Notes: generated from the sequence alone by a model not told the origin. DNA of 32,000 nt from Pseudothioglobus sp. nBUS_23 (GCF_051201565.1 NZ_CP179200.1:720001-752000); one strand, 5' to 3'. Counted from the stretch's first letter, positions 7,633-31,715 are shown. Numbers and translations are program-made.

Positions 7633-7708
7633 GGGGCGTTAGCTCAGTTGGTAGAGCATCGGACTTTTAATCCGCTGGTCGAGCGTTCGAATCGCTCACG
7701 CCCCACCA
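7633..7708 (+). tRNA. tRNA-Lys (anticodon UUU), CCA encoded
   Basis: 76 nt. The acceptor stem is GGGGCGT/ACGCCCC and the D-arm is GCTCAGTTGGTAGAGC. The anticodon loop is CTTTTAA (anticodon TTT), the T-arm contains GTTCGAATC, and the 3' end is ACCA. It closely resembles E. coli tRNA-Lys as I remember it. Confidence 0.93.
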
Positions 7709-16662: not shown

Positions 16663-17645
16663 GTAATCAGGAAATTCTTGAAGTCAAAAACTTAAAGGTT
16701 AACTTTGATGTTAGGTCAGAGGGGGATATGCCATGGACAAAGGCAAAGAAGCTCAAAGCAGTGAACGATGTATCTTTCTCCTTAAAGGCTGGAGAAACGC
16801 TTGGAGTGGTTGGAGAGTCTGGGTGTGGAAAGTCGACTCTTGCAAGAGCGATTGTCAAAATGGTGCCCGCAGAATCTGGAGAGGTTGTTTGGCTTGGCAA
16901 TGACTTGCTTGGGATGAGTAGCGCTGAAATAAGGCCATATCGCAAACAAATTCAAATGATTTTTCAGGACCCTTTAGCAAGCCTCAATCCAAGAATGAAC
17001 ATTGGAGAAATCATAGCAGAACCTCTGAGGACGCATTACCCAAAAACACCAGAGTCGGATGTCCAAGCTAGAGTGAGTGATGTAATGAATAAAGTTGGAC
17101 TCCTAGATAATTTAATGAATCGCTATCCGCATGAGTTCTCTGGAGGCCAGTGCCAGAGAATTGGTATTGCTCGCGCTCTAATTTTGAAACCTAAACTTAT
17201 TATATGTGATGAGCCTGTCTCAGCACTAGATGTGTCCATCCAGGCTCAGGTCGTTAATCTGTTGATGGATTTGCAGGAAGAGATGGACTTGGCTTTAATA
17301 TTCATCGCTCATGATCTAAGCGTTGTGAAACACATCAGCACTAAAATCATGGTTCTTTATCTGGGCAATATGGTTGAGCTAGCGAATAGTGAAGACATTT
17401 ATAAAGCACCAAGCCACCCTTACACTCAAGCGCTCATTTCTGCCGTTCCGATTCCAGACCCAAGTGTTGAAAAAAATAAAGATTTAATCTTGATTGAGGG
17501 TGAATTACCATCACCAATTAACCCACCTTCAGGCTGCGTATTTAGAACCAGGTGTCATAAAGCTCAGGAGGTCTGTGCAAATGAAAAGCCTGAGTTTAAG
17601 GGCTTATCGAAAGACCATAGTGTTGCTTGCCACTTCCATGATTAA
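16659..17645 (+). CDS. oppF: Peptide ABC transporter ATP-binding protein OppF
   Basis: 328 aa with Walker A GESGCGKST, signature FSGGQCQR, Walker B LIICDEPVSALD, and HPYTQAL plus CVFRTRC. It overlaps oppD through ATGA. Confidence 0.92.
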   Translation: MSNQEILEVKNLKVNFDVRSEGDMPWTKAKKLKAVNDVSFSLKAGETLGVVGESGCGKSTLARAIVKMVPAESGEVVWLGNDLLGMSSAEIRPYRKQIQMIFQDPLASLNPRMNIGEIIAEPLRTHYPKTPESDVQARVSDVMNKVGLLDNLMNRYPHEFSGGQCQRIGIARALILKPKLIICDEPVSALDVSIQAQVVNLLMDLQEEMDLALIFIAHDLSVVKHISTKIMVLYLGNMVELANSEDIYKAPSHPYTQALISAVPIPDPSVEKNKDLILIEGELPSPINPPSGCVFRTRCHKAQEVCANEKPEFKGLSKDHSVACHFHD

Positions 17646-17769
17646 ATACCTAAAAAAACGCATTAAAAATAAATGGCTTTTAATTGTAGTACCTTTTTTA
17701 TTTTTTCTAATCAAGGGGTTGATATGGCTAGCTATTTTCTATGGTCTGTGGGATTTAATTAAAAGTTAA
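17638..17769 (+). CDS. Hypothetical 43-aa small membrane protein (speculative)
   Basis: The ATG at 17638 overlaps the oppF stop (cc-ATG-AT-TAA). The translation is MIKYLKKRIKNKWLLIVVPFLFFLIKGLIWLAIFYGLWDLIKS: a basic N-terminus followed by a ~30-aa hydrophobic stretch. There is no SD. It is the 3' tail of the track ORF 17494..17769. Confidence 0.25.
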   Translation: MIKYLKKRIKNKWLLIVVPFLFFLIKGLIWLAIFYGLWDLIKS

Positions 17770-17779
17770 TAACATTAAT

Positions 17780-18346
17780 TTATTTTTTAACCTTTGAAAG
17801 AATCTCCTTCATACCTTTTTTGTTTTCAAAAATCTCCTCTTCAGTGAGTCCATCCATTTCGTGAGGAAACACTAACCAATCATCAGTCTCATGAACAAAA
17901 TAATCTGGTTCAACTTCAATGATATTTCTTTCAGGCTTGTACCAGGGCATTGCCATTCTAATATCATGAGGAATATTCTTTCTAGACTTTTCTTTTAGTG
18001 TGTCAAGAATTGCTTTAATACTTCTTCCAGAATCAAAAACATCATCAACTATCAGTAATTTATCTTCAGCATTCATGTGGCTGATAAGATAGTCTATGCC
18101 ATGAACTCTAACCTCTTTGGATTGCTGATTAATGCCGTAATATGATGAGGTGCGAATAGCGATATGATCAGAGTCATTTCCAAGGTATGCAAGTATTTCC
18201 TGAATGGCTATTCCAACAGGTGTTCCCCCCCTCCAAACACCAACAATAAAGTCAGGTTTGAAGCCACTATTGTGAATTTGAACTCCTAATTTATACGAGT
18301 CATGAAGAAGTTCATCAGCGGTGATATATTTTTTTGCAATTGACAT
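17780..18346 (-). CDS. Purine phosphoribosyltransferase, Gpt/XGPRT-like (type I PRT)
   Basis: 188 aa with the PRPP-binding motif LLIVDDVFDSGRS. The N-terminal YITADELLHDSYKLGVQI...VGVWRGGTPVG parallels E. coli Gpt (YIVTWDMLQIHARKLA...AVSRGGLVPG) as I remember it. WLVFPHE resembles the Gpt C-terminal W..QPW, and an extra ~25-aa acidic/basic tail follows. Confidence 0.8.
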   Translation of the reverse strand: MSIAKKYITADELLHDSYKLGVQIHNSGFKPDFIVGVWRGGTPVGIAIQEILAYLGNDSDHIAIRTSSYYGINQQSKEVRVHGIDYLISHMNAEDKLLIVDDVFDSGRSIKAILDTLKEKSRKNIPHDIRMAMPWYKPERNIIEVEPDYFVHETDDWLVFPHEMDGLTEEEIFENKKGMKEILSKVKK

Positions 18347-18387
18347 AGAAGGGTTCCGAAATTTAATACTTAAATTTTAAAGGGTTT

Positions 18388-19386
18388 TTAGCTTTTAAAT
18401 TTCTGAATTTCTTCTAACAACCTAGATTTAATTTCAGAGTCAGCAAACGAGGCCTCCATAGCCATGAGCGAAATCTGCTTTAGCTTTTCAATATCTAAGT
18501 TAAAGTGTTTAGCACTGTCATAATATTCTTGGCCAACAGTAGTATTAAAAAATGGAGGGTCGTCAGAATTAAGGCTAATACTTATACCCTTTTCCATTAT
18601 TGATGGAAGAGGGTGGGTGTCCCAATCAGAAAAAATGGATAGCGATAAATTGCTTCCTGGACAAATCTCTAGATGGATATTTTGTTCAACAAGCTTATTC
18701 ATTAGTTTTTCGTCTTTAATGCAATTCACACCATGACCAATCCTACTTACAGGCAGGTAATTGATTGCATCCCAAACGCTTTCAGGTCCACAGATCTCTC
18801 CAGCGTGAACTGTACAGGAGTAACCTGCCTTTTCAGCAATCTTATAGACTTCCGCAAACTCCTCTAATGTATATGCGTTTTCATCGCCTCCCATTCCAAA
18901 GCCGACAACATAGGGGTGAGGGTTTTGAACCATGGTTTGAACAACATTGAAGCCTTGTTTAGGTCCTAAGTGCCTGACGCAGGTAACGATAATGCGACCA
19001 ATGATTCCAAAATCACGTTCGGCATCATTTATTCCGTTGGTAATGCCTGAAATCATATCATCGTAACTGATACCGCATTCTGCAGCATGGTCTGGAGAGA
19101 TAAAGGTTTCTGCATAAATTACGTTGTCTTTTGCACAGTCTTTCAAGTATTCATAGGTAATGTCCGCATAATCTTTGCCCGATCTTAAGCAAGAGCTAAC
19201 GTTATCATAGGCCGTCAAAAAACTAGGGAAATCACTCCATGCGTAACTACCATTAGCAAGAAAAAGATTTTTATCTAAGGAGACAGCGTTACGTTTTGCA
19301 ATCGCCTGGGCAAGCGAAGGCTTGATGGTGCCTTCAAGGTGACTATGAAGCTCTACTTTTGGAACTCTATAGACTTGGTCTTGCAT
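18388..19386 (-). CDS. add: Adenosine deaminase (metal-dependent amidohydrolase family)
   Basis: 332 aa with PKVELHSHLEG (the HxH metal site), TVHAGE, IGHG and SLNSDDPPFF (the catalytic Asp-Asp block). Its start abuts the deoB stop (TAAATG). Confidence 0.88.
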   Translation of the reverse strand: MQDQVYRVPKVELHSHLEGTIKPSLAQAIAKRNAVSLDKNLFLANGSYAWSDFPSFLTAYDNVSSCLRSGKDYADITYEYLKDCAKDNVIYAETFISPDHAAECGISYDDMISGITNGINDAERDFGIIGRIIVTCVRHLGPKQGFNVVQTMVQNPHPYVVGFGMGGDENAYTLEEFAEVYKIAEKAGYSCTVHAGEICGPESVWDAINYLPVSRIGHGVNCIKDEKLMNKLVEQNIHLEICPGSNLSLSIFSDWDTHPLPSIMEKGISISLNSDDPPFFNTTVGQEYYDSAKHFNLDIEKLKQISLMAMEASFADSEIKSRLLEEIQKFKS

Positions 19387-20601
19387 TTAATTTAGCTCGC
19401 ACGCCTTGCCATTGGCAAGGGGCTTTATCTTGAGGTGCTGAGCAATAGTTTGTCCCATATCAGCAAAAGTCTCTCTTTTGCCTAGATTTTGGGCTTTAAT
19501 GGACTTTCCATAAAAGACTACAGGAACGTGCTCACGAGTATGATCACTCCCAGGCCAAGTTGGATCGCAACCATGATCAGCTGTAATGAGGACAAGATCA
19601 TCATCAATGAGCTTGGATTCGATTTCTGGAATACGCTTATCAAATTTTTCAAGCGCTAATGCGTAGCCAGGGACATCCCTTCGATGACCATAATGTGTAT
19701 CAAAATCAACAAGGTTTACAAAAATTAAGCCATCCTTAACTTTATCCATTTCATTAATCAGTTGGTCAACTAAACCCATATTGTTAGAAGCTTTAACGGT
19801 ATAAGAAACGCCTTGATTCGAAAAAATATCACCTATTTTGCCGACTGAAATAACTTGTCCATTGGCCTCCTGAATTTGATCTAGCAGAGTGAAGTCATTT
19901 GGAGGGGTTGTTAAATCCTTGCGGTTGGAGGTTCTTTTAAAGCCATCTTTAGAGTTACCTACAAAAGGTCTTGCGATAACTCTTGTAATATTTAATGGGT
20001 CGACTAGTCTTTTGGCAACTTTACAGAGCTCGTAAAGTCTCTCCAGGCCGAAGTGCTCTTCATGAGCAGCAATTTGAAAGACAGAGTCTGCTGATGTATA
20101 ACAAATTGGAAATCCAGATTGGATATGCTCATCTCCAAATTCTTCAATGACTTGGGTTCCTGATGCGTGTTTATTTGCAAGCGTTCCAGGAATATTTCCT
20201 TGCTTCAATAGCTCATCAATCAGACTCCTTGGAAAGCAGTTATCAATTTTTGGAAAGGTCCCCCATTCAAATGGGACTGGTAGACCACAGATTTCCCAGT
20301 GCCCACTGGGAGTGTCTTTTCCAGCACTGATTTCTTTGGCGAAGCCGAACGCTCCTTCAGGCTTAACTCTCTGAATTGGAAGAGAATTCCCTCGGCTTTC
20401 AATAGCAGCCTCACCAAGCCCCCACCTTAATAGGTTTGGTATTTTGAGGGGCCCACTTCGATCTGAATTATTGGCTTTACCTGAGTCACACGCTTCAATA
20501 ATATGTCCAAACGTATCTGATCCTTGATCCCCATAGAGATGGGCATCTTCACTTGAACCCAGGCCAAGAGAATCTAGAACTAAAATGATTGCCCTTTTCA
20601 T
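19387..20601 (-). CDS. deoB: Phosphopentomutase
   Basis: 404 aa with N-terminal ILVLDSLGLG, then DTPSGHWE, NLVDFDTHYGHRRD and TADHGCDPT, all alkaline-phosphatase-superfamily DeoB motifs. It overlaps the deoA stop by 1 nt (TGATG). Confidence 0.93.
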   Translation of the reverse strand: MKRAIILVLDSLGLGSSEDAHLYGDQGSDTFGHIIEACDSGKANNSDRSGPLKIPNLLRWGLGEAAIESRGNSLPIQRVKPEGAFGFAKEISAGKDTPSGHWEICGLPVPFEWGTFPKIDNCFPRSLIDELLKQGNIPGTLANKHASGTQVIEEFGDEHIQSGFPICYTSADSVFQIAAHEEHFGLERLYELCKVAKRLVDPLNITRVIARPFVGNSKDGFKRTSNRKDLTTPPNDFTLLDQIQEANGQVISVGKIGDIFSNQGVSYTVKASNNMGLVDQLINEMDKVKDGLIFVNLVDFDTHYGHRRDVPGYALALEKFDKRIPEIESKLIDDDLVLITADHGCDPTWPGSDHTREHVPVVFYGKSIKAQNLGKRETFADMGQTIAQHLKIKPLANGKACELN

Positions 20602-21950
20602 CAGTTTAGGCCTTTATTTGAGGTGAGAACTTCTTTGATTAAATTTGTATTACTAGGCTTTTTTTGATTGAAATGAATGAGTTTAGGAAGCTGAGATTGC
20701 AGAAAATCGAGTTGCATTTGATCACGACAATGCGCCATTGCAAGTGACTCTCCTTTATCTAACCATTGACCCTTGCTGACTATCTCACTGAGACCAACAC
20801 CATGATCAATAGGATCACTAGATTTTGTTCTACCCGCCTTTAAATGAATCATGCTAAGTCCGATTGCTCTAGCATCGACCTCAGAGACGTATCCAGATGA
20901 ATTTGACTGAATAGATGCAACCAAAGGCATTGGTTTTAAGTGTTTTTCCGGAACTTCAATCAAATCAACTGGGCCTCCAAGCTCAGTGATCATTTTTCCA
21001 AATATTGATGCGGCTTTTCCAGACTCAAGTGCGAGTTTGGATTTATTTCTAGCGCTATCTAAATCTGACTCCAGGCCGCTCAGCTGAAGCATGTAGGCGG
21101 ATAATTCAAGAGTCAGCTCTAAAAGTCTTTGATCAGCATTGTGAGGATCTTTCAAGAAGTCAATGCACTCCATCACTTCGATTGCATTACCAACACTGTG
21201 CCCTAGAACCTGGTCCATGTCGGTAATTAAACAGCTTGTTGGGACTCCAGAATTACTCGAAACATTGGCAATACTTTGTGCCAACTCTTGAGCCATTTTG
21301 TAATTAGCTGCGAAGGCGCCATTACCTGTTTTAATATCCATGACAAGAGCATCAAGGCCTGATGCTAGCTTCTTAGATAAAATCGAAGCAGTAATTAAAT
21401 CAATTGACTCTACGGTAGCAGTAACATCTCGTGTTGCATAGAAGCGCTGGTCTGCAGGAGCTAGGTTTGCTGTTTGTCCAATAATCGCACATCCCACTTG
21501 CTTAACGAGAGACTGGAATGCTGAATTATTGGGCGTCGCATCATATCCAGGAATGCTCTCAAGTTTATCGAGGGTTCCTCCTGTGTGACCCAGTCCTCGC
21601 CCTGAAATCATCGGTACATAGCCTCCACAAGAGGCCACAATTGGCGCCAACATTAAACTAATTTTATCCCCAACTCCACCAGTTGAATGCTTGTCTACTA
21701 CAGGGCCATTTAGATTGAGCTGATCCCAGTTTAAGGTATCTCCAGAGTTCATCATATGCCTAGTTAAGTTAACCCTTTCATCCATACTCATGCCGCATTT
21801 GAAGATAGCCATAGCAAAGGCACCCAGTTGAGCATCCGTCAAGCTTCCGTCAGTGATGCCTCGAACCATGTATCCAATTTCAGGGTCACTCAACGAAATT
21901 CCGTCACGTTTTTTTCTGATGAGTTCTTGAGGTAAAAATAGCTCACTCAT
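20601..21950 (-). CDS. deoA: Thymidine (pyrimidine-nucleoside) phosphorylase
   Basis: 449 aa with IRKKRDG, the signature VDKHSTGGVGDK, SGRGLGHTGGTLDKLESIPG and a C-terminal alpha/beta domain. Confidence 0.93.
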   Translation of the reverse strand: MSELFLPQELIRKKRDGISLSDPEIGYMVRGITDGSLTDAQLGAFAMAIFKCGMSMDERVNLTRHMMNSGDTLNWDQLNLNGPVVDKHSTGGVGDKISLMLAPIVASCGGYVPMISGRGLGHTGGTLDKLESIPGYDATPNNSAFQSLVKQVGCAIIGQTANLAPADQRFYATRDVTATVESIDLITASILSKKLASGLDALVMDIKTGNGAFAANYKMAQELAQSIANVSSNSGVPTSCLITDMDQVLGHSVGNAIEVMECIDFLKDPHNADQRLLELTLELSAYMLQLSGLESDLDSARNKSKLALESGKAASIFGKMITELGGPVDLIEVPEKHLKPMPLVASIQSNSSGYVSEVDARAIGLSMIHLKAGRTKSSDPIDHGVGLSEIVSKGQWLDKGESLAMAHCRDQMQLDFLQSQLPKLIHFNQKKPSNTNLIKEVLTSNKGLN

Positions 21951-21956
21951 CCTTGA

Positions 21957-24314
21957 CTAGTCTCCATAAGGAGTCCAAATGTTTTTAATTTCTGTAGCAT
22001 TTCTTAGGAATTCCAGACCCTCACCTTGCATTGGGTCAATCCAGTTTCTATCCAAATCCTCATTGACCCATAAACGCTTTAAATCCTTAGCGCTGATAGA
22101 TTCCACTGAGGCAATTACATTTTGGTCAGCCCAGCACCACATTGCGTCAGCATCAGCATGACCTGCAAGCTGTTCAGCGAGATCTTGTTTGTTACCACTA
22201 ACAATATTGATAACGCCAGCTGGAATATCTGAAGTTTCAAAGGTTTGGACAAGCTCTAAAGCAACACTAGCAAATTTTTGGCTGGGAACAAATACAACGC
22301 GATTGCCCATAGCTATTGCTGGAGCAATTAATGAAACTGTTGAAAGGAGTGGCGAATGCTCTGGCGCAATTTGAGCAAGAATGCCTACAGGCTCAGGTAG
22401 AGCCATGGTGACGCCTCTATATGGAGCACTATGAACAGCGCCGTCATATTTGTCAGCCCAGGCGGCATAACTAAATAATCGACTGATACTTTCATCAAAC
22501 TCAGCTTTGGCTTGTTTTTTAGTAGTTCCACAAAGATTAATCAGACGATAGACCCATTCTGACTCTCGTATTGATAAATTCTCAGCAATAAAATAGATTA
22601 TCTGAGCCCTGCCATGACCACTAAGTGATCCCCATGATGATGCCTTTGAGGCAGCACTAATAGCGTTTCTAATATCTTTTCTGTTTCCAGAGCCAACATA
22701 AGCGGCGAGTGAACCATCCGCATTGAAAGTTGCAATGCTATGACCACCATCTGGTCTAACTTGTTTTCCACCAATATAAAACTTGAGAGTGCGATCTATC
22801 GCTTCTTCTTTATATGAAGCTGATGAAGTAGGGAGCTTAGTTGATGTTTGAAGTCCTTCAGGTTTGAGGTACTCATATAAACCCTCTTTGCCGCCTTCTC
22901 TTCCAAAACCAGACTCTTTAATACCACCAAAGCCGCAAGAAGCATCAAATTGATTGTGGCAATTTATCCAGACAACCCCAGCTTTGACTTTTGGCGCTAC
23001 ATCCATAGCGCGATTAATATTTTCACTCCATATGCTTGCAGCGAGTCCATATCGACTATTATTGGCCAACTCAATGGCTTCAGATTGAGTTCTAAAAGTC
23101 ATTGAAACCAGAACTGGTCCAAAAATTTCCTCTTGAACAAGCGGATGACTTGAATCGACCTCAGTGATGAGTGTAGGAGGATAGTAATTCCTTTCTGAGT
23201 CAAGATCACAGGCCTGATAGAGCTCTCCACCATGGATAAGTCCACCATCAACCATTTCGCTAACTCTTTGAAATTGAGTTTTACTAACAAGACTGCCTAT
23301 GTCCGTTGATTTGTCAAGTGATGATCCAAGTCGAAGTGTTTTTATTCTTCTTTTAATCTTTTGGTGAAGCTCATCTGCGACATCAGCTTGCACTAATAAT
23401 CTGGATCCGGCGCAGCAGACCTCACCCTGGTTAAACCAGATTGAGTCAACTAATCCTTCAACAGCAGCATCAAGATCAGCATCTTCAAATACAATAAATG
23501 CGGACTTTCCTCCAAGCTCAAGAGTTAGTTTTTTTCCTTGTCCCGCAGTGCTCTGCCTGATTGATCTTCCAACAGCTGTAGAGCCAGTAAATGCGACTTT
23601 GTTAACGCTATTGTGTGCTGCAAGCTCAGCACCAATTGCGCCATCACCATTAATCATATTAATGACCCCGGGTGGAAGGCCTGCCTCTTCACAGAGTTGA
23701 GCAAAAAACATAGCGGTCAATGGCGTTTGTTCAGCTGCTTTAAAGACAATAGTATTTCCCATGGCAAGTGCTGGTGCAATCTTCCAAGAAAGCATCAAGA
23801 GTGGGAAGTTCCAGGGAACAATTTGTGCCACAACACCAATGGCTTTATAGCTTGAGAACTCTTTTGCTTGTAGCTGTGCCCAGCCTGCATGGTAATAAAA
23901 ATGCCTAATCGCCAGAGGTATATCGATGTCTCTACTTTCCCTAATTGGTTTCCCATTGTCTAGAGACTCAAGGACGGCTATAAGTCTTGAGTGTTTTTGG
24001 ATTAATCGCGCGAGCGCATAAAGAACTTTAGCTCTCTTATGACCTCCAAGATTTTCCCAAGCAGGCTGCGCTTTTCTGGCGGCAGAAACAGCAGAATCTA
24101 ATTGTTTAGAGTTGGCAATTTCAATGTTAGCTAAAAGCTCTCCGTTTGAGGGGTCAAGAGTGGCGATCAAGTCTGATTTATTATTTGAAACAAATCGACC
24201 ATTAATGAGCTGACCAAATCTTCGATTATTTTTTTCTAGCCACACATGGGCCTCTTTGCTGCTTTCAAATGCTTCGCTATATTCGAGACTATCAAAAGAT
24301 TTTAGAATTGTCAT
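21957..24314 (-). CDS. Two-domain aldehyde dehydrogenase (full catalytic ALDH plus truncated C-terminal ALDH-like module; ALDH16-type architecture)
   Basis: 785 aa. Domain 1 (about aa 1-485) has IVPWNFPLLM, FTGSTAVG, general base ELGGKS, nucleophile motif FNQGEVCCAGSR (Cys codon 23415-23417) and EEIFGPV. A Ser/Thr-rich linker LQTSTKLPTSSASYKEE lies at about 22801-22860. Domain 2 (~285 aa) repeats only the NAD-binding half (IAPEHSPLLSTVSLIAPAIAMGNRVVFVPS) and lacks the catalytic Glu/Cys region. Confidence 0.85.
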   Translation of the reverse strand: MTILKSFDSLEYSEAFESSKEAHVWLEKNNRRFGQLINGRFVSNNKSDLIATLDPSNGELLANIEIANSKQLDSAVSAARKAQPAWENLGGHKRAKVLYALARLIQKHSRLIAVLESLDNGKPIRESRDIDIPLAIRHFYYHAGWAQLQAKEFSSYKAIGVVAQIVPWNFPLLMLSWKIAPALAMGNTIVFKAAEQTPLTAMFFAQLCEEAGLPPGVINMINGDGAIGAELAAHNSVNKVAFTGSTAVGRSIRQSTAGQGKKLTLELGGKSAFIVFEDADLDAAVEGLVDSIWFNQGEVCCAGSRLLVQADVADELHQKIKRRIKTLRLGSSLDKSTDIGSLVSKTQFQRVSEMVDGGLIHGGELYQACDLDSERNYYPPTLITEVDSSHPLVQEEIFGPVLVSMTFRTQSEAIELANNSRYGLAASIWSENINRAMDVAPKVKAGVVWINCHNQFDASCGFGGIKESGFGREGGKEGLYEYLKPEGLQTSTKLPTSSASYKEEAIDRTLKFYIGGKQVRPDGGHSIATFNADGSLAAYVGSGNRKDIRNAISAASKASSWGSLSGHGRAQIIYFIAENLSIRESEWVYRLINLCGTTKKQAKAEFDESISRLFSYAAWADKYDGAVHSAPYRGVTMALPEPVGILAQIAPEHSPLLSTVSLIAPAIAMGNRVVFVPSQKFASVALELVQTFETSDIPAGVINIVSGNKQDLAEQLAGHADADAMWCWADQNVIASVESISAKDLKRLWVNEDLDRNWIDPMQGEGLEFLRNATEIKNIWTPYGD

Positions 24315-24323
24315 AATTAAATC

Positions 24324-25370
24324 CTATGCTAATGGGTGACGATATGATGATGAGTAGAAGCCAGTTGAGTAGTGATCTAATTGACGCTCAATATCACCAA
24401 GAAGACTCGATGCACCAAATCTAAACAAATCAGGCTCTAACCATCGACGACCCAACTCTTCTCTAATCATAGTCATATATAAAAGTGCTGTCTTAGTATC
24501 ACTGATGCCACCTGCAGCCTTAAAACCAACTGAAATACCAGTTTTAATATAATAATCTCTAATCATTCTAACCATGACAAGACTTACAGGAAGGGTGGCG
24601 TTGACTGACTCTTTGCCAGTCGATGTCTTAATAAAATCAGCACCAGCCATCATACAAATTTGGGAAGCTTTTGCAATATTTGTAAGGTTCCCTAATTCTC
24701 CAGTCGCCAAGATAGTTTTCATGTGGGCATCGCCACATTGTTCACGAAACATCTTGACTTCTTCATAAAGCGCCTTCCAATTACCCTCTAAAACATGCCT
24801 TCTACTGATCACTATATCGATTTCATTAGCTCCTTCATTGACAGAATATTCTATTTCTTGAAGTCTCAGTGGAAGCGGGGAGAGTCCAGCAGGGAAGCCT
24901 GTAGATACAGCAGCAAGATTTATTGAGGAGCCTTTGATGGCTTGTTTAGCAGCAACTAGCATGTCATGATAAACACATACAGCAGCAACACTTAGATTTA
25001 AAGATTCAATGCCCAATTCTTTCTCAAGATTAATACTGATAGGTTGCCTTGCCTTGCTGCAAAGTCTTCTTACTCGTGCGACTGTATCGTCACCAGATAA
25101 AGTGGTTAAGTCCATTAAAGTAATAGCTTTTAATAACCATGCAGCTTGATTCTCTTTTTTGATGCTTCGTCTAGGGCCATAATTTGCACATCTTCTCTCA
25201 ACAGCGCTTCGGTTTACAGATATGCTCGAAATCAGATCAAGACTAAAGTCTATCCCAGGATTTCTTAAATCACTATGAGTGGTTTCTATCTCATCAGATT
25301 CAACAAGATTAAGAATTTTCTTGTCTTCTTGTAATGCTTCGTTTTTTGTTGAATTTTTATTTGTATTCAT
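24324..25370 (-). CDS. deoC: Deoxyribose-phosphate aldolase, long (animal DERA-like) form
   Basis: The Schiff-base Lys block ADFIKTSTGKESVNAT is present, along with KTILATGELG, AAWLLKAITLMDLTTLSGDDT and LFRFGASSLLGDIERQ. The start is given at the first ATG (25370, 348 aa). The track ORF begins at an in-frame TTG at 25385 (353 aa), 6 nt after the punA stop. Confidence 0.9.
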   Translation of the reverse strand: MNTNKNSTKNEALQEDKKILNLVESDEIETTHSDLRNPGIDFSLDLISSISVNRSAVERRCANYGPRRSIKKENQAAWLLKAITLMDLTTLSGDDTVARVRRLCSKARQPISINLEKELGIESLNLSVAAVCVYHDMLVAAKQAIKGSSINLAAVSTGFPAGLSPLPLRLQEIEYSVNEGANEIDIVISRRHVLEGNWKALYEEVKMFREQCGDAHMKTILATGELGNLTNIAKASQICMMAGADFIKTSTGKESVNATLPVSLVMVRMIRDYYIKTGISVGFKAAGGISDTKTALLYMTMIREELGRRWLEPDLFRFGASSLLGDIERQLDHYSTGFYSSSYRHPLA

Positions 25371-25391
25371 AATATTTCTAACCAATTGATC

Positions 25392-26195
25392 TTACTGGTT
25401 TTTTAGGTAAGAATTTAATAATTTCTCTACAGTATCTGCTGCTTTACTTGCAAAAGCAATAGTCTGTTCATGACTAATATCGCTTTCACTCATTCCCGCG
25501 GCATAATTTGTAATGACTGAGAGAGCACAAAGTTGAATGCCTTGGTGGCGAGCTAGAATGACCTCTGGAACAGTTGACATTCCAACAGCGTCAGCCCCAA
25601 GCATTTTTACCGCCCTTATTTCAGCAGGCGTTTCAAACTGTGGGCCACTGAACCAAGCATAGACACCCTCAAATAAATTGATATTATTAGCCTTTGCAGC
25701 AATCCTCATGTCATTGCTTAGTTTTGGGTCGTAAGCGTTGACCATGTTGACGAATCGCTCGTTACCATCAGCTCCAAATAAAGGGGAAACCCCTGTCATA
25801 TTAATATGATCTGTAATGAGCATGACGCTTCCTGGAGATGCCTTTTCTAAAGTGCTTCCAGCAGCATTTGTTAAAACTAAACTTTGGCAGCCTATCGCAT
25901 TCAATACTTCAATAGCAACAGCCATAATATCTGCCTTACCATGCTCATAGTAATGAGCCCTTCCTTGCATAACAACAACACTTGTGCCTTGAACCTCACC
26001 AAACAATAGTTTTCCCGCATGACCACCGACTCCTGCAACTGGAAACCCAGGCAAAGAAGTAAAATTTAGAGTGCTTTTTATATTGATGTTGTCACAAAAT
26101 TGACCAAGACCTGAGCCAAGAATGAGTCCAATTTTTGGCTTAAAGCCTTTGACGTGTTGATTAATAATCTCAACACATTCTTGCACTTGGGTCAT
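25392..26195 (-). CDS. punA: Purine nucleoside phosphorylase, trimeric PNP/MTAP family (PunA/human-PNP type)
   Basis: 267 aa with GIILGSGLG, GHAGKLLFG, GRAHYYEG-like (GRAHYYEHG), GPQFETPAE and AVGMSTVPEV, the family-2 PNP motifs. It overlaps the cdd stop (TAATG). Confidence 0.9.
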   Translation of the reverse strand: MTQVQECVEIINQHVKGFKPKIGLILGSGLGQFCDNINIKSTLNFTSLPGFPVAGVGGHAGKLLFGEVQGTSVVVMQGRAHYYEHGKADIMAVAIEVLNAIGCQSLVLTNAAGSTLEKASPGSVMLITDHINMTGVSPLFGADGNERFVNMVNAYDPKLSNDMRIAAKANNINLFEGVYAWFSGPQFETPAEIRAVKMLGADAVGMSTVPEVILARHQGIQLCALSVITNYAAGMSESDISHEQTIAFASKAADTVEKLLNSYLKNQ

Positions 26196-26587
26196 TACAG
26201 GTGCTCCGGTCCGAATGATTGCGGAAGAAGATCGGATAAATGCATACGATTCTTAATGCCTTCTGTCGAGCACATTATGACCTCGGTAGTTGCATCAGAA
26301 AACTCTCTTATTCTTTGCCTGCATCCGCCACAAGGAATTCCTCCTTCATCGTTTTTGGTCATGACATAGATTTTGTTAATTTTATGTTCACCTCCCATAA
26401 CCATAGATGCGATTGCAGAAGCTTCAGCGCAGTTACCAAGAGGATAGCTAGCGTTTTCAACATTGCAGCCACTATATTCACTACCCTTGTCGGTAATAAT
26501 TAATACCCCAACAGGATAATTTGAATAGGGAACGTAGGCCTTACTCATTGCTTCTTTGGTTAATTGTATATGGCTATCTTCAGTCAT
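26195..26587 (-). CDS. cdd: Cytidine deaminase, small homotetrameric type
   Basis: Zinc motifs CAEASAI and PCGGCRQ are present, and the product is about 131 aa. I chose the ATG at 26587 (MTEDSHIQL...), preceded by AAGGAG that lies inside the 3' end of the permease gene. The 174-aa track ORF extends spuriously into the permease coding region. Confidence 0.88.
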   Translation of the reverse strand: MTEDSHIQLTKEAMSKAYVPYSNYPVGVLIITDKGSEYSGCNVENASYPLGNCAEASAIASMVMGGEHKINKIYVMTKNDEGGIPCGGCRQRIREFSDATTEVIMCSTEGIKNRMHLSDLLPQSFGPEHL

Positions 26588-26588
26588 T

Positions 26589-27563
26589 CTATAACTCCTT
26601 AATATAAGGCTGTGCTGAGGCTTTAGGCGGGACAGCTTTGCCAATAAACCCAGCCAAAAGAATAATAGTAAGAATATAAGGTGTAGCTTCGATAAGCTGG
26701 ACAGGAATTTCCCCAACACCCGGAATAACTATGCCCTGAAGTCTAATCGAGATAGCGTCTAAAAAAGCAAATAAGAAGCATGCTGCAAGGACCTTGTAGG
26801 GATGCCACTTTCCAAAAATAAGAGCTGCAAGAGCAATAAATCCGCTTCCAGCAGTCATATCTTTAACAAACTGAGCGTTATATGCAGTAGAGAGATATAC
26901 ACCGCCTATACCACACAATATTCCACCAATTAAAAGGGCTTTATAGCGAAGAGACTCAACAGAGATTCCAGCCGTATCCACCGCTTTTGGATTCTCTCCT
27001 ACAGCTCGAAGTCGAAGACCAAAACGAGTTTTAAAGACTACCCACCATACCATTGGGACAATGACAAAAGCAAGGTATACCAAGATGTTATGACCGCTGA
27101 TTAGCTCCCTATAGATAACTCCTAAAATTGGAACATGGTCGATGAGATCAAGGCCAGGCAAATCAATCGAAAGGAATCTTTGGTCATTATTTAAAGTAGG
27201 AGTGATTCCAGCCTTTTTGAACCAGGCAAGACTAAGAATCATGGTCAGTCCAGCTGCCAAGATATTGATTGCAACGCCACTGACAATCTGATTACCTTTA
27301 TAAGTAATCGATGCGAAGCCATGAACCATCGCTAGCACTGAAGAGGCAATGATTCCTGCCAGTAGCCCAATCCATGGTGAGCCAAATACTACTGCGGCAC
27401 TTGCAGCAATAAATGCTGACATAAGTAATTTACCTTCTAGTCCAATATCGACTACTCCAGAGCGTTCTGCAAATAGTCCTGCCATTGAAGCGAAAATGAG
27501 AGGGACACAGACGCGAACAGAAGCATCTAAGGTTAAAACCGTACTTAAAAAGATATCACTCAT
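26589..27563 (-). CDS. ABC transporter permease, BMP/nucleoside (CUT2-like) system, second permease (B. subtilis NupQ/YufQ-like)
   Basis: 324 aa and highly hydrophobic with roughly 8-10 TM segments. It has GERSGVVDIGLEGKLL-type N-terminal and GKWHP motifs seen in BMP-associated permeases. ATGA overlap with the upstream permease. Confidence 0.88.
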   Translation of the reverse strand: MSDIFLSTVLTLDASVRVCVPLIFASMAGLFAERSGVVDIGLEGKLLMSAFIAASAAVVFGSPWIGLLAGIIASSVLAMVHGFASITYKGNQIVSGVAINILAAGLTMILSLAWFKKAGITPTLNNDQRFLSIDLPGLDLIDHVPILGVIYRELISGHNILVYLAFVIVPMVWWVVFKTRFGLRLRAVGENPKAVDTAGISVESLRYKALLIGGILCGIGGVYLSTAYNAQFVKDMTAGSGFIALAALIFGKWHPYKVLAACFLFAFLDAISIRLQGIVIPGVGEIPVQLIEATPYILTIILLAGFIGKAVPPKASAQPYIKEL

Positions 27564-28660
27564 TCTGTTGCCTCAATTGGAGCTAAAAAGCGAATTAAAA
27601 TTGGCCTGTACAAGTACTCAAGGCCACCACAAAATAGAATAACAAGTCCCTGCATAACAACAACAATATCCCTAGAGACATTCTGAAGTTCAAAGTCTAG
27701 CTCTGCACCCCCTTGATAAAGGATTCCAAAGAGAAAGGCCGCAATCAGAATTCCAACGGGATGATTACGACCCATCAGAGCTACAGCAATACCACCAAAA
27801 CCATAGCCATAATTAAAATTGAGGAATAGGCGGTGCTGAACGCCCATAAGTTCATTGATTCCTACCAGACCTGCTAAAGCGCCAGAAATACACATGGTGA
27901 CAATAATAATCTTTTTTGGGTTGATTCCACCATAGACAGCAGCATCGTTACTTTTTCCAACCGCTCGAATAGCATAGCCCCAGCGAGTATGCCAAAGAAA
28001 AAACCAAACCAATCCTGAGAAAAATAGTGCCACAAGGATAGATAAATTAAGTGGTGATTTTGCAATCTTATAGCCAAAACTAGCAAAAACATCATGAACA
28101 AAAGGCAGCCAAGAGGCTTTGATAAAATCTGCACTTTCTGGAGACATTTCACCAACTTCTCTTAAAACATTGACTAAGACATAAACCATCAATGCAGAGG
28201 CTAAAAAGTTGAACATAATCGTTGTTATAACAATATGGCTTCCTCTATAAGCCTGCAAATAGGCAGGAATAATAGCCCATAGAGCGCCAAAGAGAAGCCC
28301 TCCAGAAATTGCTAGAGGGATGACTATCCATGCACTTAATGCAGGGTTTAAGTATAACGCAACTATAGCAGTGCCTAGGCCGCCAACATATGCCTGACCT
28401 TCACCACCAATATTAAATAATCCAGCATGAAAGGCAACCGCTACAGCTAAACCAGTAAATACAAAGTTGGTTGCATAATAAAGCGTGTAGCCTAAACCCT
28501 CATCATATCCGAGTGCACCATAAATCAAGATTTTTGTTGCCTCAATAGGATCTACGCCAATTAGAATAAATACAATAGCCGTGGCAATAAATGCGGTTAA
28601 AACATTGAGGAAGGGTAACAATAATCCGTTAATCCATGATAAGCGTCTCTCACGAGTCAT
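27560..28660 (-). CDS. ABC transporter permease, BMP/nucleoside system, first permease (NupP/YufP-like)
   Basis: 366 aa, a polytopic membrane protein with FNIGGEGQ and AVALMGRNHP blocks. ATGA overlap with the ATPase gene. Confidence 0.88.
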   Translation of the reverse strand: MTRERRLSWINGLLLPFLNVLTAFIATAIVFILIGVDPIEATKILIYGALGYDEGLGYTLYYATNFVFTGLAVAVAFHAGLFNIGGEGQAYVGGLGTAIVALYLNPALSAWIVIPLAISGGLLFGALWAIIPAYLQAYRGSHIVITTIMFNFLASALMVYVLVNVLREVGEMSPESADFIKASWLPFVHDVFASFGYKIAKSPLNLSILVALFFSGLVWFFLWHTRWGYAIRAVGKSNDAAVYGGINPKKIIIVTMCISGALAGLVGINELMGVQHRLFLNFNYGYGFGGIAVALMGRNHPVGILIAAFLFGILYQGGAELDFELQNVSRDIVVVMQGLVILFCGGLEYLYRPILIRFLAPIEATE

Positions 28661-30213: not shown

Positions 30214-30264
30214 AGCTACTTATTTTAACCAAGAAATAGATTTATTATAGTTATATAGATTTGA

Positions 30265-30284
30265 AACTTTTATATATAAAAGTT
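30265..30284. repeat. Perfect 20-nt AT-rich palindrome AACTTTTATATATAAAAGTT
   Basis: The sequence is self-complementary over all 20 nt. It sits immediately 3' (operon sense) of the terminator U-tract and 52 nt upstream of the ATPase ATG. Function is unknown. Confidence 0.5.
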
Positions 30285-30319
30285 AAAAAAAAACATCCGG
30301 CCCTAGAGCCGGATGTTTT
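30285..30319 (-). terminator. Rho-independent hairpin after the binding-protein gene (intra-operon attenuator)
   Basis: On the minus strand, AAACATCCGGC-TCTAGGG-GCCGGATGTTT forms an 11-bp GC-rich stem (30319-30309 / 30301-30291). A run of 9 U follows (A-run 30285-30293 on the plus strand, partly shared with the stem). It lies between the SBP stop (30340) and the ATPase start (30213). Confidence 0.65.
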
Positions 30320-30339
30320 AATCTAAAAAAAACTGCTTG

Positions 30340-31380: not shown

Positions 31381-31520
31381 TGTGTACTCTCCTTAGTTAT
31401 TAATCTTAATTTTTAATAGAAAAAAACCGTCATTAAAAAAAAGACAGTCAAAATATCTTTAGTATTAACTCAAGTTTTGTTCTTAAAAGTATATAGAAAT
31501 TAAATTCCCGAGTTATGAAT

Positions 31521-31549
31521 ATTCTATTCTTGAAAATGGTCTTTGTCAA
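31521..31549 (-). promoter_or_regulatory. Near-consensus sigma70 promoter for the nucleoside operon
   Basis: On the minus strand: TTGACA (31549-31544), a 17-nt spacer, then TAGAAT (31526-31521), preceded by a T-rich UP-like tract. The predicted TSS near 31514 gives a leader of about 130 nt. Confidence 0.6.
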
Positions 31550-31643
31550 AAAAAAATCGATATATTTTTCAATCTTCCTAAATTGGTATCCTTAAATTAA
31601 GTTTGGTGTTTTTTTTCTGTAATATTTTTATAATAAATAATGA

Positions 31644-31666
31644 TTGTTTACAATAATTGTCAACAA
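31644..31666. promoter_or_regulatory. Two TTGT-NN-ACAA motifs (candidate GntR-family operators)
   Basis: TTGTTTACAA (31644-31653) and TTGTCAACAA (31657-31666) are 13 bp apart start-to-start. Both fit the generic GntR operator pattern (N)GT(N)xAC(N). They lie just upstream of a TATAAT (31676-81) in front of the GntR gene. Confidence 0.35.
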
Positions 31667-31715
31667 ATTTAGGCATATAATAAAAGCTTTAGATTAAATG
31701 ATTAAGGCTGAGTTA

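What the first reader, a model, noticed from the sequence alone, without database searches (positions are those of the whole stretch)
21957..24314. ALDH16-type two-domain aldehyde dehydrogenase embedded between deoC and deoA
**Seen in the sequence**
- A single 785-aa ORF encodes a complete, apparently active ALDH (ELGGKS general base, GEVCCAGSR nucleophile).
- A Ser/Thr linker follows, then a ~285-aa second ALDH-like module. This module copies only the NAD-binding half and ends before any catalytic residues.
- The gene sits 9 nt downstream of a DERA gene and 6 nt upstream of deoA. The operon also encodes PNP, ADA, CDA and a purine PRT.

**Established knowledge (from memory)**
- Size and architecture of this kind (about 800 aa, full ALDH plus truncated C-terminal domain) define the poorly understood ALDH16 family, whose physiological substrate is unknown.
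- A human ALDH16A1 variant has been associated with gout and serum urate, and an interaction with HPRT1 has been proposed.

**Inference**
- DERA releases acetaldehyde from deoxyribose-5-P. The operon position therefore argues that bacterial ALDH16 is the dedicated aldehyde-oxidising step of deoxynucleoside catabolism.
- This would give a mechanistic bridge between ALDH16 and purine/nucleoside metabolism.
Basis: partly seen in the sequence, partly recalled or inferred. Interest (0 to 1): 0.78.

Follow-up and report, generated by a model that had tools for sequence, protein, structure and literature searches.

The report
ALDH16 paired with deoxyribose-phosphate aldolase
A two-module aldehyde dehydrogenase of the poorly understood ALDH16 family sits inside a nucleoside-breakdown operon, and across at least ten bacterial phyla its relatives lie directly after (or are fused to) the aldolase that releases acetaldehyde from deoxyribose, which gives this orphan family a testable job.

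Summary
The 785-aa ORF (21957..24314) is a real ALDH16. It aligns end to end with the crystallised Loktanella ALDH16 (6MVR, E 2.5e-269, 54% identity). It keeps N169/K192/E266/C301. Its C-terminal 282 aa are a degenerate copy of its own NAD-binding half. It lies 9 nt after deoC and 6 nt before deoA, in a 12-gene nucleoside uptake and catabolism operon of a Pseudothioglobus genome.

- deoC lies directly upstream on the same strand in 68 of 73 species-representative genomes (at least 10 phyla) and in 26 of 27 metagenome contigs.
- No other neighbour is conserved.
- At least three lineages encode a single DERA-ALDH16 fusion protein.
- AlphaFold2 models one fusion as a compact body (pTM 0.87).

The most likely role is oxidation of DERA-derived acetaldehyde, possibly in a complex with DERA. 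This was not tested biochemically. Catalytically dead ALDH16 copies still adjacent or fused to intact DERA hint at a non-catalytic partnership as well. The partner DERA subfamily is the animal type. The operon's PRT is not a general neighbour. I found no paper linking ALDH16 with DERA.

The parts
31521..31549 (-). Promoter-like site upstream of the operon (TTGACA-17-TAGAAT, 11 of 12)
   Evidence: Consensus scan only. It is the best-scoring site in 17000..32000 and lies upstream of the first gene. Function is not shown.
30340..31380 (-). BMP/PnrA-like substrate-binding lipoprotein of a nucleoside ABC transporter; first gene of the operon
   Evidence: Pfam PF02608 Bmp, E 8.8e-55.
30290..30319 (-). 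Strong hairpin plus T-run directly after the binding-protein gene; possible partial terminator inside the operon
   Evidence: 13-bp stem with 6 GC pairs, then TTTTTTTTT. The role is inferred.
28657..30213 (-). ABC transporter ATPase with two ABC domains
   Evidence: PF00005, two stretches, E 8e-51.
27560..28660 (-). ABC transporter permease
   Evidence: PF02653, E 6.8e-37.
26589..27563 (-). ABC transporter permease
   Evidence: PF02653, E 1.2e-36.
26195..26587 (-). Cytidine deaminase (cdd). The likely start is ATG at 26587 (M45 of the listed 174-aa ORF).
   Evidence: TIGR01354 scores 139.9 bits against a cut-off of 113.65 and matches aa 51-173 of the long ORF. The start is inferred from where the match begins.
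25392..26195 (-). Purine-nucleoside phosphorylase (trimeric PNP/PunA type)
   Evidence: NF006054 scores 333 bits against a cut-off of 218. Pfam PNP_UDP_1 also matches.
24324..25385 (-). Deoxyribose-phosphate aldolase (DERA, deoC), long form. It has an E. coli-type barrel with catalytic D190, K253 and K289, plus a conserved N-terminal extension (aa 41-85, nt 25131..25265).
   Evidence: - TIGR00126 scores 146.9 bits against a cut-off of 117.3.
- The PDB match to E. coli-type DERA 5eky (E 1.3e-43) starts at residue 83.
- The extension is conserved among 69 ALDH16-linked DERAs.
- The protein is 52% identical to a tick DERA.
- Residues 1-35 are not conserved, so the TTG start may lie too far upstream.
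22854..24314 (-). ALDH16 catalytic module (aa 1-487): a complete ALDH with N169 (23808..23810), E266 (23517..23519) and C301 (23412..23414)
   Evidence: - Pfam Aldedh covers aa 42-484.
- 6MVR residues 2-477 match at E 2.9e-202, and human ALDH2 (1cw3) at E 5e-110.
- The pocket motifs PWNFPLLM.xWK, FNQGxxCCAGSR and FGG are shared with ALDH2.
22806..22853 (-). Ser/Thr-rich linker (aa 488-503)
   Evidence: Read directly from the sequence.
21957..22805 (-). ALDH16 C-terminal pseudo-Rossmann module (aa 504-785) plus stop codon
   Evidence: - Self-alignment to aa 27-263, E 3e-23.
- Aligns to 6MVR residues ~500-766.
- 227 cluster representatives match at E<=1e-30 in a 1.84-billion-protein library.
20601..21950 (-). 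Thymidine phosphorylase (deoA)
   Evidence: TIGR02643 scores 595.6 bits against a cut-off of 570.7.
19387..20601 (-). Phosphopentomutase (deoB)
   Evidence: NF003766 scores 531.6 bits against a cut-off of 256.
18388..19386 (-). Adenosine deaminase
   Evidence: TIGR01430 scores 327.7 bits against a cut-off of 216.55.
17780..18346 (-). Phosphoribosyltransferase, probably purine-specific; last gene of the operon
   Evidence: PF00156 matches. The nearest solved relatives are purine PRTs, 1vdm at E 9.5e-13. All NCBIfam equivalog cut-offs are missed.

Best explanation
The gene encodes a catalytically competent ALDH16 that works as the dedicated partner of the DERA encoded just upstream.

Proposed pathway in this operon:
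1. Nucleosides are imported by the BMP-type ABC transporter.
2. They are deaminated by Cdd and Ada.
3. They are phosphorolysed by PNP and DeoA.
4. DeoB converts deoxyribose-1-P to deoxyribose-5-P.
5. DERA cleaves that into glyceraldehyde-3-P and acetaldehyde.
6. ALDH16 oxidises the toxic, volatile acetaldehyde to acetate with NAD(P)+.
7. The PRT salvages the released purine base.

Shown here:
- Family membership and intact catalytic residues.
- Operon structure.
- Near-universal deoC-ALDH16 adjacency.
- Existence of natural DERA-ALDH16 fusions.

Inferred:
- That acetaldehyde is the substrate.
- That the two proteins associate physically, so that acetaldehyde is handed over directly.
- That the conserved DERA N-terminal extension and/or the ALDH16 C-terminal pseudo-Rossmann domain form the docking surfaces.
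For: - **Family and residues.** End-to-end match to LsALDH16 6MVR, 54% identity. N169, K192, E266, C301 and E396 are present here and wherever the position is covered in the 80 surveyed homologues.
- **Catalytic half.** Outside ALDH16, its nearest solved relatives include human ALDH2, betaine-aldehyde dehydrogenases and retinal dehydrogenases (E ~1e-110). It keeps the ALDH2 pocket motifs, with F170, W177 and the FGG Phe. It has Cys, not Arg, at the position before the nucleophile.
- **Genome survey.** Over GTDB species representatives, deoC is directly upstream on the same strand in 68 of 73 loci with upstream sequence. The median gap is 21 nt, and the phyla number at least 10.
- **Independent replicate.** 26 of 27 metagenome contigs show the same adjacency.
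- **No other conserved neighbour**. The partner DERAs form one subfamily, 54-88% identical to the window's.
- **Fusions.** Full-length DERA-ALDH16 proteins exist in the same order as the genes: P0131, P0271, P0272, P0273, P0276 and P0298. They were seen on independent contigs and assemblies. P0300 is a separate fusion of another DERA type to an ordinary ALDH.
- **Structure prediction.** AlphaFold2 on fusion P0272 gives pLDDT 88.6 and pTM 0.87. The DERA extension and the inter-enzyme linker are confidently ordered.
- **Coupling.** A 9-nt gap, with a Shine-Dalgarno-like AGGA overlapping the deoC stop, suggests translational coupling.
- **Literature.** Bacterial ALDH16 is an active aldehyde dehydrogenase and the family's physiological role is unknown (PMC12041015).
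Against: - No enzymology could be done here. The only activity I could read about for LsALDH16 is with hexanal-type aldehydes (PMC12041015). Its acetaldehyde kinetics are unknown to me.
- Catalytically dead ALDH16 copies remain adjacent to intact DERA (Rhodovulum strictum and R. tesquicola) or fused to it (P0276). Oxidation may therefore not be the only function.
- Only 20 of 80 loci carry other nucleoside genes. The conserved unit is a deoxyribose-5-P module, not a nucleoside operon.
- The surveys cover ALDH16 relatives about 46% or more identical in the C-domain. More distant members were not sampled.
- Physical association rests on fusions and one AlphaFold2 score. No coordinates or PAE were available, and only 7 sequences covered the DERA part of the alignment.
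Confidence: 0.72

Rival explanations
1. ALDH16 acts mainly as a structural or regulatory partner of DERA, for example as a scaffold, stabiliser or allosteric regulator, through its C-terminal pseudo-Rossmann domain. Aldehyde oxidation would be secondary or dispensable.
For: - Dead ALDH16 copies (N169, E266 and C301 lost, 11-14 aa deleted) are kept as intact ORFs 4 nt after intact deoC in two Rhodovulum species. Their dN/dS is 0.37, against 0.19 for deoC.
- P0276 is an intact DERA fused to a dead ALDH16.
- Many bacterial-looking ALDH16-like representatives lack catalytic residues.
- Vertebrate ALDH16A1 is a pseudoenzyme (PMC12041015).
Against: - The window protein and every surveyed homologue in the 80 genome loci keep the full catalytic set wherever the position is covered. 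So do all complete genes from the metagenome loci. That argues for selection on catalysis.
- A dN/dS of 0.37 over a short divergence could reflect recent decay rather than maintenance.
Confidence: 0.12
2. ALDH16 oxidises a different aldehyde of the same pathway. Candidates are glyceraldehyde-3-phosphate (GapN-like, giving 3-phosphoglycerate) or the open-chain form of deoxyribose(-5-P), rather than acetaldehyde.
For: Both DERA products are aldehydes, and so is the DERA substrate. Adjacency and fusion do not say which aldehyde is used.
Against: - The substrate pocket is of the ALDH1/2 type, with hydrophobic and aromatic residues (F170, W177, FGG Phe).
- The residue before the nucleophile is Cys. 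From memory, GapN uses Arg there and at two other sites to bind phosphate.
- LsALDH16 is reported to be active on hydrophobic aliphatic aldehydes.
Confidence: 0.1
3. It is a general-purpose detoxifying ALDH whose place in the operon is incidental.
For: ALDHs are promiscuous. No NCBIfam equivalog cut-off is reached.
Against: - Adjacency to deoC in 68 of 73 and 26 of 27 loci, in otherwise unrelated flanking contexts and across at least 10 phyla.
- Repeated gene fusions.
- By inference, the chance expectation for a given upstream neighbour is about 1 in a few thousand genes.
Confidence: 0.03

Closest known systems
Loktanella sp. ALDH16 (LsALDH16; PDB 6MVR/6MVS/6MVT/6MVU; Liu & Tanner 2019)
   Same: It has the same two-module architecture. 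It is 54% identical over the whole length. The catalytic N/E/C residues are present, and the C-terminal pseudo-Rossmann domain lacks them. Its nearest relatives in my survey (68-71% identity) also have deoC upstream.
   Different: The host differs: a gammaproteobacterial Pseudothioglobus rather than an alphaproteobacterium. The reviews I could read treat the physiological role as unknown and do not mention DERA. The primary paper could not be read.
Vertebrate ALDH16A1 (pseudoenzyme; gout and HPRT1 literature)
   Same: It belongs to the same family and has the same full ALDH plus truncated C-terminal domain layout. A primate ALDH16A1 (P0304) is recovered as a homologue. A tick DERA (the only animal DERA compared) is of the same long-form subfamily as the ALDH16-linked bacterial DERA, at 52% identity including part of the N-terminal extension.
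   Different: Vertebrate proteins lack the catalytic residues (P0304). The proposed partner in the literature is HPRT1 (title cited), not DERA. In bacteria a PRT is near ALDH16 in only 4 of 80 loci.
ALDH1/ALDH2 family (for example human mitochondrial ALDH2, 1cw3)
   Same: The catalytic half aligns over about 436 residues at E 5e-110. Nucleophile, general base and aromatic pocket motifs are shared.
   Different: ALDH2 has no C-terminal second module. From the literature, it forms classical tetramers, whereas ALDH16 forms a dimer that mimics a tetramer.
Aldolase plus acylating acetaldehyde dehydrogenase complexes (DmpFG, BphIJ)
   Same: The logic is the same: an aldolase releases acetaldehyde, and a dedicated adjacent dehydrogenase removes it. 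In those systems this happens through a tunnel (established knowledge; cited in the reference list seen).
   Different: The proteins are unrelated: a pyruvate aldolase and a CoA-acylating dehydrogenase of another superfamily. The product there is acetyl-CoA, not acetate. Channelling is not shown here.
SPU bacterial microcompartment (DERA plus AldDH inside a protein shell; PMC11585597)
   Same: DERA is the signature enzyme and carries a ~70-aa N-terminal extension. An aldehyde dehydrogenase is proposed to dispose of the acetaldehyde.
   Different: There is no room for shell genes in this tightly packed operon. The dehydrogenase there is acylating. The extension there is read as an encapsulation peptide.
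Type B/C PutA C-terminal domain
   Same: An extra Rossmann-like domain that does not bind NAD+ and directs an unusual dimer, as described for ALDH16.
   Different: PutA is a proline dehydrogenase/P5C dehydrogenase fusion. It appears only as a distant hit, at about 30% identity over the ALDH part.
Classical deo operons (E. coli deoCABD)
   Same: deoC, deoA, deoB and a purine nucleoside phosphorylase are encoded together.
   Different: From established knowledge, E. coli has no ALDH in the operon. Its DERA is the short form without the N-terminal extension: the alignment starts at window residue 83.

Membership tests
ALDH16 (cd07111) | N-terminal complete ALDH (NAD-binding, catalytic and oligomerisation parts) | tested here: met
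   Pfam Aldedh covers aa 42-484 of a 461-position model. 6MVR residues 2-477 match at E 2.9e-202.
ALDH16 (cd07111) | C-terminal ~280-aa domain that resembles an ALDH NAD-binding domain but lacks a catalytic half and nucleotide-binding motifs | tested here: met
   The module aligns to the protein's own aa 27-263 (E 3e-23) and ends before E266. N169, K192 and GSTAVG are not conserved. It aligns to the 6MVR C-domain.
ALDH16 (cd07111) | End-to-end homology to a structurally characterised member | tested here: met
   Query 1-784 aligns to 6MVR 2-766, E 2.5e-269, at 54% identity.
ALDH16 (cd07111), active bacterial subgroup | Catalytic Asn, Glu and Cys retained | tested here: met
   N169, E266 and C301 are present. 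They are invariant in the 80 surveyed homologues wherever the sequence is present.
ALDH16 (cd07111) | Dimer in which the C-terminal domain mimics the quaternary contacts of tetrameric ALDHs | not testable with these tools
   Known for LsALDH16 from the literature. No multimer modelling or coordinates were available here.
ALDH16 (cd07111) | NAD(P)+-dependent aldehyde dehydrogenase activity | not testable with these tools
   Needs enzymology. The literature reports activity with hexanal for LsALDH16.
Class I deoxyribose-phosphate aldolase (DeoC/DERA), the partner gene | Equivalog-level profile match and the catalytic Asp/Lys/Lys | tested here: met
   TIGR00126 scores 146.9 against a cut-off of 117.3. 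D190 (EIDIV), K253 (FIKTSTGK) and K289 (GFKAAGG) are present.
Aldolase-dehydrogenase channelling complexes (DmpFG/BphIJ type) | Homology to the pyruvate aldolase and the CoA-acylating dehydrogenase subunits | tested here: not met
   The aldolase here is PF01791 DeoC, and the dehydrogenase is PF00171 Aldedh of the ALDH1/2 type. The resemblance is functional only.
Aldolase-dehydrogenase channelling complexes (DmpFG/BphIJ type) | Stable physical complex with direct transfer of the aldehyde | tested here: inconclusive
   Natural fusions exist, and the fusion model has pTM 0.87. These are suggestive only. There is no interface information or biochemical data.
SPU bacterial microcompartment | BMC shell genes in the locus and an acylating AldDH | tested here: not met
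   All operon genes are accounted for, and the gaps between them are too short for extra genes. The dehydrogenase is a non-acylating-type ALDH1/2 relative.
Non-phosphorylating GAPDH (GapN) | Arg residues that bind the substrate phosphate, including the residue preceding the catalytic Cys (from memory) | tested here: not met
   The motif is EVCCAGSR, with Cys before the nucleophile as in ALDH2 (QCCCAGSR). The positions of the GapN residues are recalled from memory, not checked here.

The most novel reading that the evidence does not exclude
The ancestral and conserved role of the whole ALDH16 family is to partner physically with long-form DERA. This would include the catalytically dead members.

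In bacteria, ALDH16 would sit in a complex that takes acetaldehyde straight from DERA. In lineages where the catalytic residues were lost (some bacteria, vertebrate ALDH16A1), the protein would persist as a DERA-binding pseudoenzyme.

The human ALDH16A1 association with urate and gout would then act through deoxynucleoside/deoxyribose-5-P catabolism rather than through HPRT1.
Probability: 0.25. Interest if true: 0.85.

Novelty: new variant of a known kind. Interest (0 to 1): 0.72.

Why it matters
ALDH16 is one of the few ALDH families with no assigned physiological substrate. Its human member is a pseudoenzyme linked genetically to gout, with no accepted mechanism.

A near-invariant, cross-phylum pairing with deoxyribose-phosphate aldolase, repeated fusion to it, and persistence of the pairing after catalytic death give the family a concrete biochemical context. 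They also yield simple experiments:
- a DERA-coupled acetaldehyde assay,
- complex isolation,
- knock-outs grown on deoxynucleosides,
- DERA/ALDH16A1 co-immunoprecipitation in human cells.

The pairing would also add a missing step to reconstructions of deoxynucleoside use by abundant marine heterotrophs, namely how acetaldehyde is handled.

Tried and rejected
Translation gives only stops. The gene is on the minus strand.
- **Primary papers.** Liu & Tanner 2019 (DOI and PMC6376876) and Vasiliou 2013 (PMC3746320) are not held. An earlier mention of DERA there cannot be excluded.
- **Literature searches.** ALDH16 with deoxyribose, ALDH16A1 with DERA, ALDH16 with operon/aldolase, and deoC with aldehyde dehydrogenase gave only proteomics lists or unrelated work.
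- **First genome-scan alignment.** A 25-sequence C-domain alignment was too divergent to seed the scan. A 7-sequence alignment replaced it.
- **ORF calling.** Length-greedy and GC3-weighted ORF calling were unreliable in high-GC loci. Adjacency was therefore measured from tblastn coordinates.
- **A 'second ALDH16' in L059** turned out to be PutA.
- **Doubtful fusions.** The apparent fusions P0279, P0295, P0299 and the 'Artemia' P0297 were set aside as probable assembly chimeras or contamination. They have truncated junctions and Rhodobacterales-like sequence. Only six full-length fusions are counted.
- **Metagenome scan for dead lineages.** It returned almost only active ALDH16. It serves as an independent replicate instead, and the context of most dead lineages remains unknown.
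- **Exceptions lacking adjacent deoC.** L037, L049, L066 and L068 have no deoC within 10 kb, and L038 has it 4.8 kb upstream. All have unrelated upstream genes, and four of the five are Chloroflexota.
- **Riboswitch search.** No known RNA family lies in the operon leader.
- **NCBIfam.** It has no ALDH16 model. All ALDH equivalog cut-offs are missed.
Full report
**Observation**

The ORF at 21957..24314 exists but is on the minus strand. It encodes 785 aa. Pfam finds the Aldedh family in two stretches, the main one covering aa 42-484.

The catalytic set is present:
- N169 (PWNFP)
- K192
- E266 (ELGGKS)
- C300/C301 (GEVCCAGSR)
- E396

A Ser/Thr-rich linker (aa 488-503) follows. After it comes a 282-aa module that aligns to the protein's own residues 27-263 (29% identity, E 3e-23). 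That module ends before the general base, and it has lost the equivalents of N169, K192 and the GSTAVG nucleotide-binding motif.

The whole chain aligns end to end with the crystallised Loktanella ALDH16 (6MVR; query 1-784 against 2-766, E 2.5e-269) at 54% identity. The identical protein is on record from a 1.79-Mb contig of Pseudothioglobus sp. nBUS_23, and hundreds of full-length 785-aa relatives exist. The two-module chain is therefore not an artefact. This is a bona fide, catalytically intact ALDH16. That architecture is already described in the literature (PMC12041015 and PMC8160307).

**Surroundings**

Twelve tightly packed minus-strand genes run from 31380 to 17780:
1. BMP/PnrA-like binding protein
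2. ABC ATPase
3. Permease
4. Permease
5. Cytidine deaminase
6. Purine-nucleoside phosphorylase
7. deoC
8. ALDH16
9. Thymidine phosphorylase
10. Phosphopentomutase
11. Adenosine deaminase
12. A phosphoribosyltransferase whose nearest solved relatives are purine PRTs

A promoter-like site (11 of 12) precedes the first gene, and a strong hairpin follows the binding-protein gene.

deoC ends 9 nt before the ALDH16 ATG, with AGGA overlapping its stop codon. ALDH16 ends 6 nt before deoA.

The DERA has an E. coli-type barrel with D190, K253 and K289. It also has an N-terminal extension that E. coli DERA lacks.

The rest of the window is ordinary housekeeping: ABC-F, ccmH, lysS, cmk, rpsA, tRNA-Lys, an autotransporter and an Opp/Dpp transporter. 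No Rfam family other than the tRNA is present.

**Neighbourhood survey**

I searched one genome per GTDB species with a profile of the ALDH16-specific C-terminal domain, so that ordinary ALDHs would not be picked up. This found 591 relatives, of which the best 80 loci were kept. They span:
- Gamma- and Alphaproteobacteria
- Verrucomicrobiota
- Gemmatimonadota
- Chloroflexota
- Myxococcota
- Bacillota (Limnochordales)
- Bacteroidota
- Acidobacteriota
- SAR324

Seven loci are cut at the 5' end of ALDH16. Of the 73 with upstream sequence, 68 have deoC directly upstream on the same strand. The median gap is 21 nt and all 68 gaps are at most 623 nt. One further locus has deoC 4.8 kb upstream.

The partner DERAs are 54-88% identical to the window's, so they form a single subfamily. 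They share the N-terminal motif RNpG..ldldW..N.SAvERR...gRRsVKKewQAAWLLkA.

Clustering all neighbouring ORFs shows that nothing else is conserved:
- deoA is near in 17 of 80 loci.
- PNP is near in 11.
- A DeoD-type phosphorylase is near in 8.
- Any other nucleoside gene is near in 20.
- The PRT is near in 4.

The catalytic residues are invariant in the 80 ALDH16 proteins wherever the sequence is present. The nearest survey relatives of the crystallised enzyme (68-71% identity) also have deoC upstream.

An independent metagenome scan gave the same result. Of 27 complete ALDH16 genes with at least 1 kb of upstream sequence, 26 have deoC adjacent, and all 26 are catalytically intact. By inference, a given gene is expected as the upstream neighbour roughly once in a few thousand genes, so this association is far beyond chance. 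Because the flanks differ between loci, it is not simply inherited synteny of a larger block.

**Fusions**

An exhaustive profile search with the C-domain turned up P0131. It has an N-terminal DeoC domain, 49% identical to the window DERA including the extension, followed by a complete ALDH16.

Searching with P0131 found six full-length fusions of 1082-1184 aa in at least three divergence groups:
- P0131, P0271, P0272 and P0273
- P0276
- P0298

P0300 joins a different DERA type to an ordinary ALDH.

The fusion genes occur on independent contigs from different assemblies, including a Rhodospirillales MAG. There they stand alone among housekeeping genes. The domain order, DERA then ALDH16, matches the gene order.

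AlphaFold2 on P0272 with a 39-sequence alignment gave mean pLDDT 88.6 and pTM 0.87. The DERA extension scores 87-96 and the inter-enzyme linker 72-84. DERA is about 27% of the chain, so a pTM this high implies a confidently placed DERA. However, no coordinates or PAE were available, and the DERA part of the alignment had only seven sequences. I treat this as suggestive only.

**Mechanism**

DERA splits deoxyribose-5-P into glyceraldehyde-3-P and acetaldehyde (established biochemistry). Among solved non-ALDH16 structures, the nearest relatives of the ALDH16 catalytic half include human ALDH2, betaine-aldehyde dehydrogenases and retinal dehydrogenases, all at E ~1e-110. The half shares the ALDH2 pocket motifs: F170, W177, the FGG Phe and the CCAGSR nucleophile loop. 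It has Cys where GapN, from memory, has a phosphate-binding Arg. Published work reports LsALDH16 activity on hydrophobic aliphatic aldehydes.

The best-supported reading is therefore that ALDH16 oxidises DERA-derived acetaldehyde to acetate, probably in close physical association with DERA (confidence 0.72). The link to DERA itself is much firmer than the identity of the substrate.

The same logic is known from DmpFG-type complexes. It has also been proposed for the SPU microcompartment, where DERA likewise carries an N-terminal extension (PMC11585597). In both cases the proteins involved are different.

**Complication and most novel reading**

Many bacterial-looking ALDH16-like cluster representatives lack the catalytic residues.

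In Rhodovulum strictum and R. tesquicola, the ALDH16 has lost N169, E266 and both Cys, plus 11-14 residues of the GFGG...GREGG loop. It nevertheless remains an intact ORF 4 nt after an intact deoC. The R. euryhalinum orthologue is still active. dN/dS between the two dead copies is 0.37, against 0.19 for deoC. That is relaxed constraint, but not neutral evolution.

P0276 is an intact DERA fused to a dead ALDH16.

The ALDH16-linked DERA subfamily is the animal type: it is 52% identical to a tick DERA, including part of the extension. Animals also carry ALDH16A1, which in vertebrates is a pseudoenzyme.

It is therefore possible, though unproven, that a physical DERA-ALDH16 partnership is the conserved core of the family. 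Human ALDH16A1 might then act through DERA and deoxynucleoside catabolism rather than through HPRT1. The bacterial data give no general support for an HPRT link.

**Novelty and verdict**

The protein is a new member of a structurally characterised family, and the aldolase-plus-dehydrogenase logic is known. I could not find the specific DERA-ALDH16 module, its fusions, or its persistence after catalytic death in the searchable literature. The primary ALDH16 structure paper was not readable.

I rate the finding as a new variant of a known kind, with interest 0.72. It turns an open question, what ALDH16 is for, into a set of simple experiments.

Noticed in passing
L085 6001-8274 and L087 6001-8301 (Rhodovulum strictum, R. 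tesquicola); compare L086: These ALDH16 orthologues have lost N169, E266, C300/C301 and 11-14 aa of the GFGG..GREGG loop. They are still intact ORFs 4 nt downstream of an intact deoC. dN/dS between them is 0.37, against 0.19 for deoC. The R. euryhalinum orthologue is still active.
   Followed up: partly
P0276 (1082 aa, metagenome protein): A natural fusion of an intact DERA to a catalytically dead ALDH16 (N169->E, E266->N, C301->A).
   Followed up: partly
Proteins P0125, P0130, P0136, P0139-P0141, P0146, P0152, P0155, P0156, P0159, P0162, P0165, P0187, P0194, P0197, P0201, P0202, P0212, P0214, P0241, P0242: Many bacterial-looking full-length ALDH16-like cluster representatives lack the catalytic Asn, Glu and Cys. 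Pseudo-ALDH16 is therefore not confined to vertebrates. Their genomic context is unknown, because the metagenome scan aimed at them returned active forms.
   Followed up: partly
Proteins P0237, P0239, P0247, P0248, P0253, P0254, P0259, P0262, P0270: Stand-alone proteins of ~290 aa resemble the ALDH16 C-terminal domain alone. In the two scanned (P0237, P0253) Pfam Aldedh covers only about model positions 10-232. All nine end in a W-H-P/T motif (for example TAWHPIG). Their function and context are unknown.
   Followed up: no
Proteins P0305, P0307, P0312, P0313: Long-form DERA also occurs fused to a phosphopentomutase-type Metalloenzyme domain, to PGM/PMM domains and to an MFS transporter. These are further fusion links within deoxyribose metabolism.
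   Followed up: no
window 25131..25265 (-), DERA aa 41-85: This N-terminal extension is absent from E. coli DERA. Among ALDH16-linked DERAs it is conserved almost as well as the barrel, and it is also present in a tick DERA. It is modelled with pLDDT 87-96 in the fusion. DERA aa 1-35 are unconserved, so the TTG start at 25385 may lie too far upstream.
   Followed up: partly
window 24312..24326 (-): deoC and ALDH16 are in the same reading frame, separated only by TAG plus three codons. Loss or read-through of one stop codon would create a 1142-aa fusion like the natural ones.
   Followed up: no
window 30290..30319 (-): A 13-bp GC-rich hairpin with a T-run lies right after the binding-protein gene, inside the operon. 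It could be a partial terminator that raises the ratio of binding protein to downstream products.
   Followed up: no
window 26195..26719 (-): The listed cdd ORF (GTG start, 174 aa) overlaps the permease gene by 131 nt. The profile match starts at about residue 45, so the real start is probably ATG at 26587.
   Followed up: partly
L031, L044, L048, L056, L064, L069, L070 (Bacteroidota): A recurrent compact arrangement, deoA-deoC-ALDH16, is followed in most of these loci by a DeoD-type purine nucleoside phosphorylase. It differs from the Thioglobaceae operon.
   Followed up: partly
L037, L038, L049, L068 (Chloroflexota) and L066: These are the loci where ALDH16 lacks an adjacent deoC. Upstream genes are unrelated (cysS-like, membrane protein, sugar-phosphate isomerase/oxidoreductase-like). 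In L038 deoC lies 4.8 kb upstream.
   Followed up: partly
P0127 (1154 aa, animal-type tail GDIFPN): An ALDH16A1-like protein with an N-terminal Myb/SANT-like DNA-binding domain (PF13837). It may be a gene-model merge or a real fusion.
   Followed up: no
window 7944..10088 (+) and 7633..7708 (+): An autotransporter beta-domain protein (714 aa, TTG start) lies next to tRNA-Lys(UUU). Both are unrelated to the finding and were not examined further.
   Followed up: no
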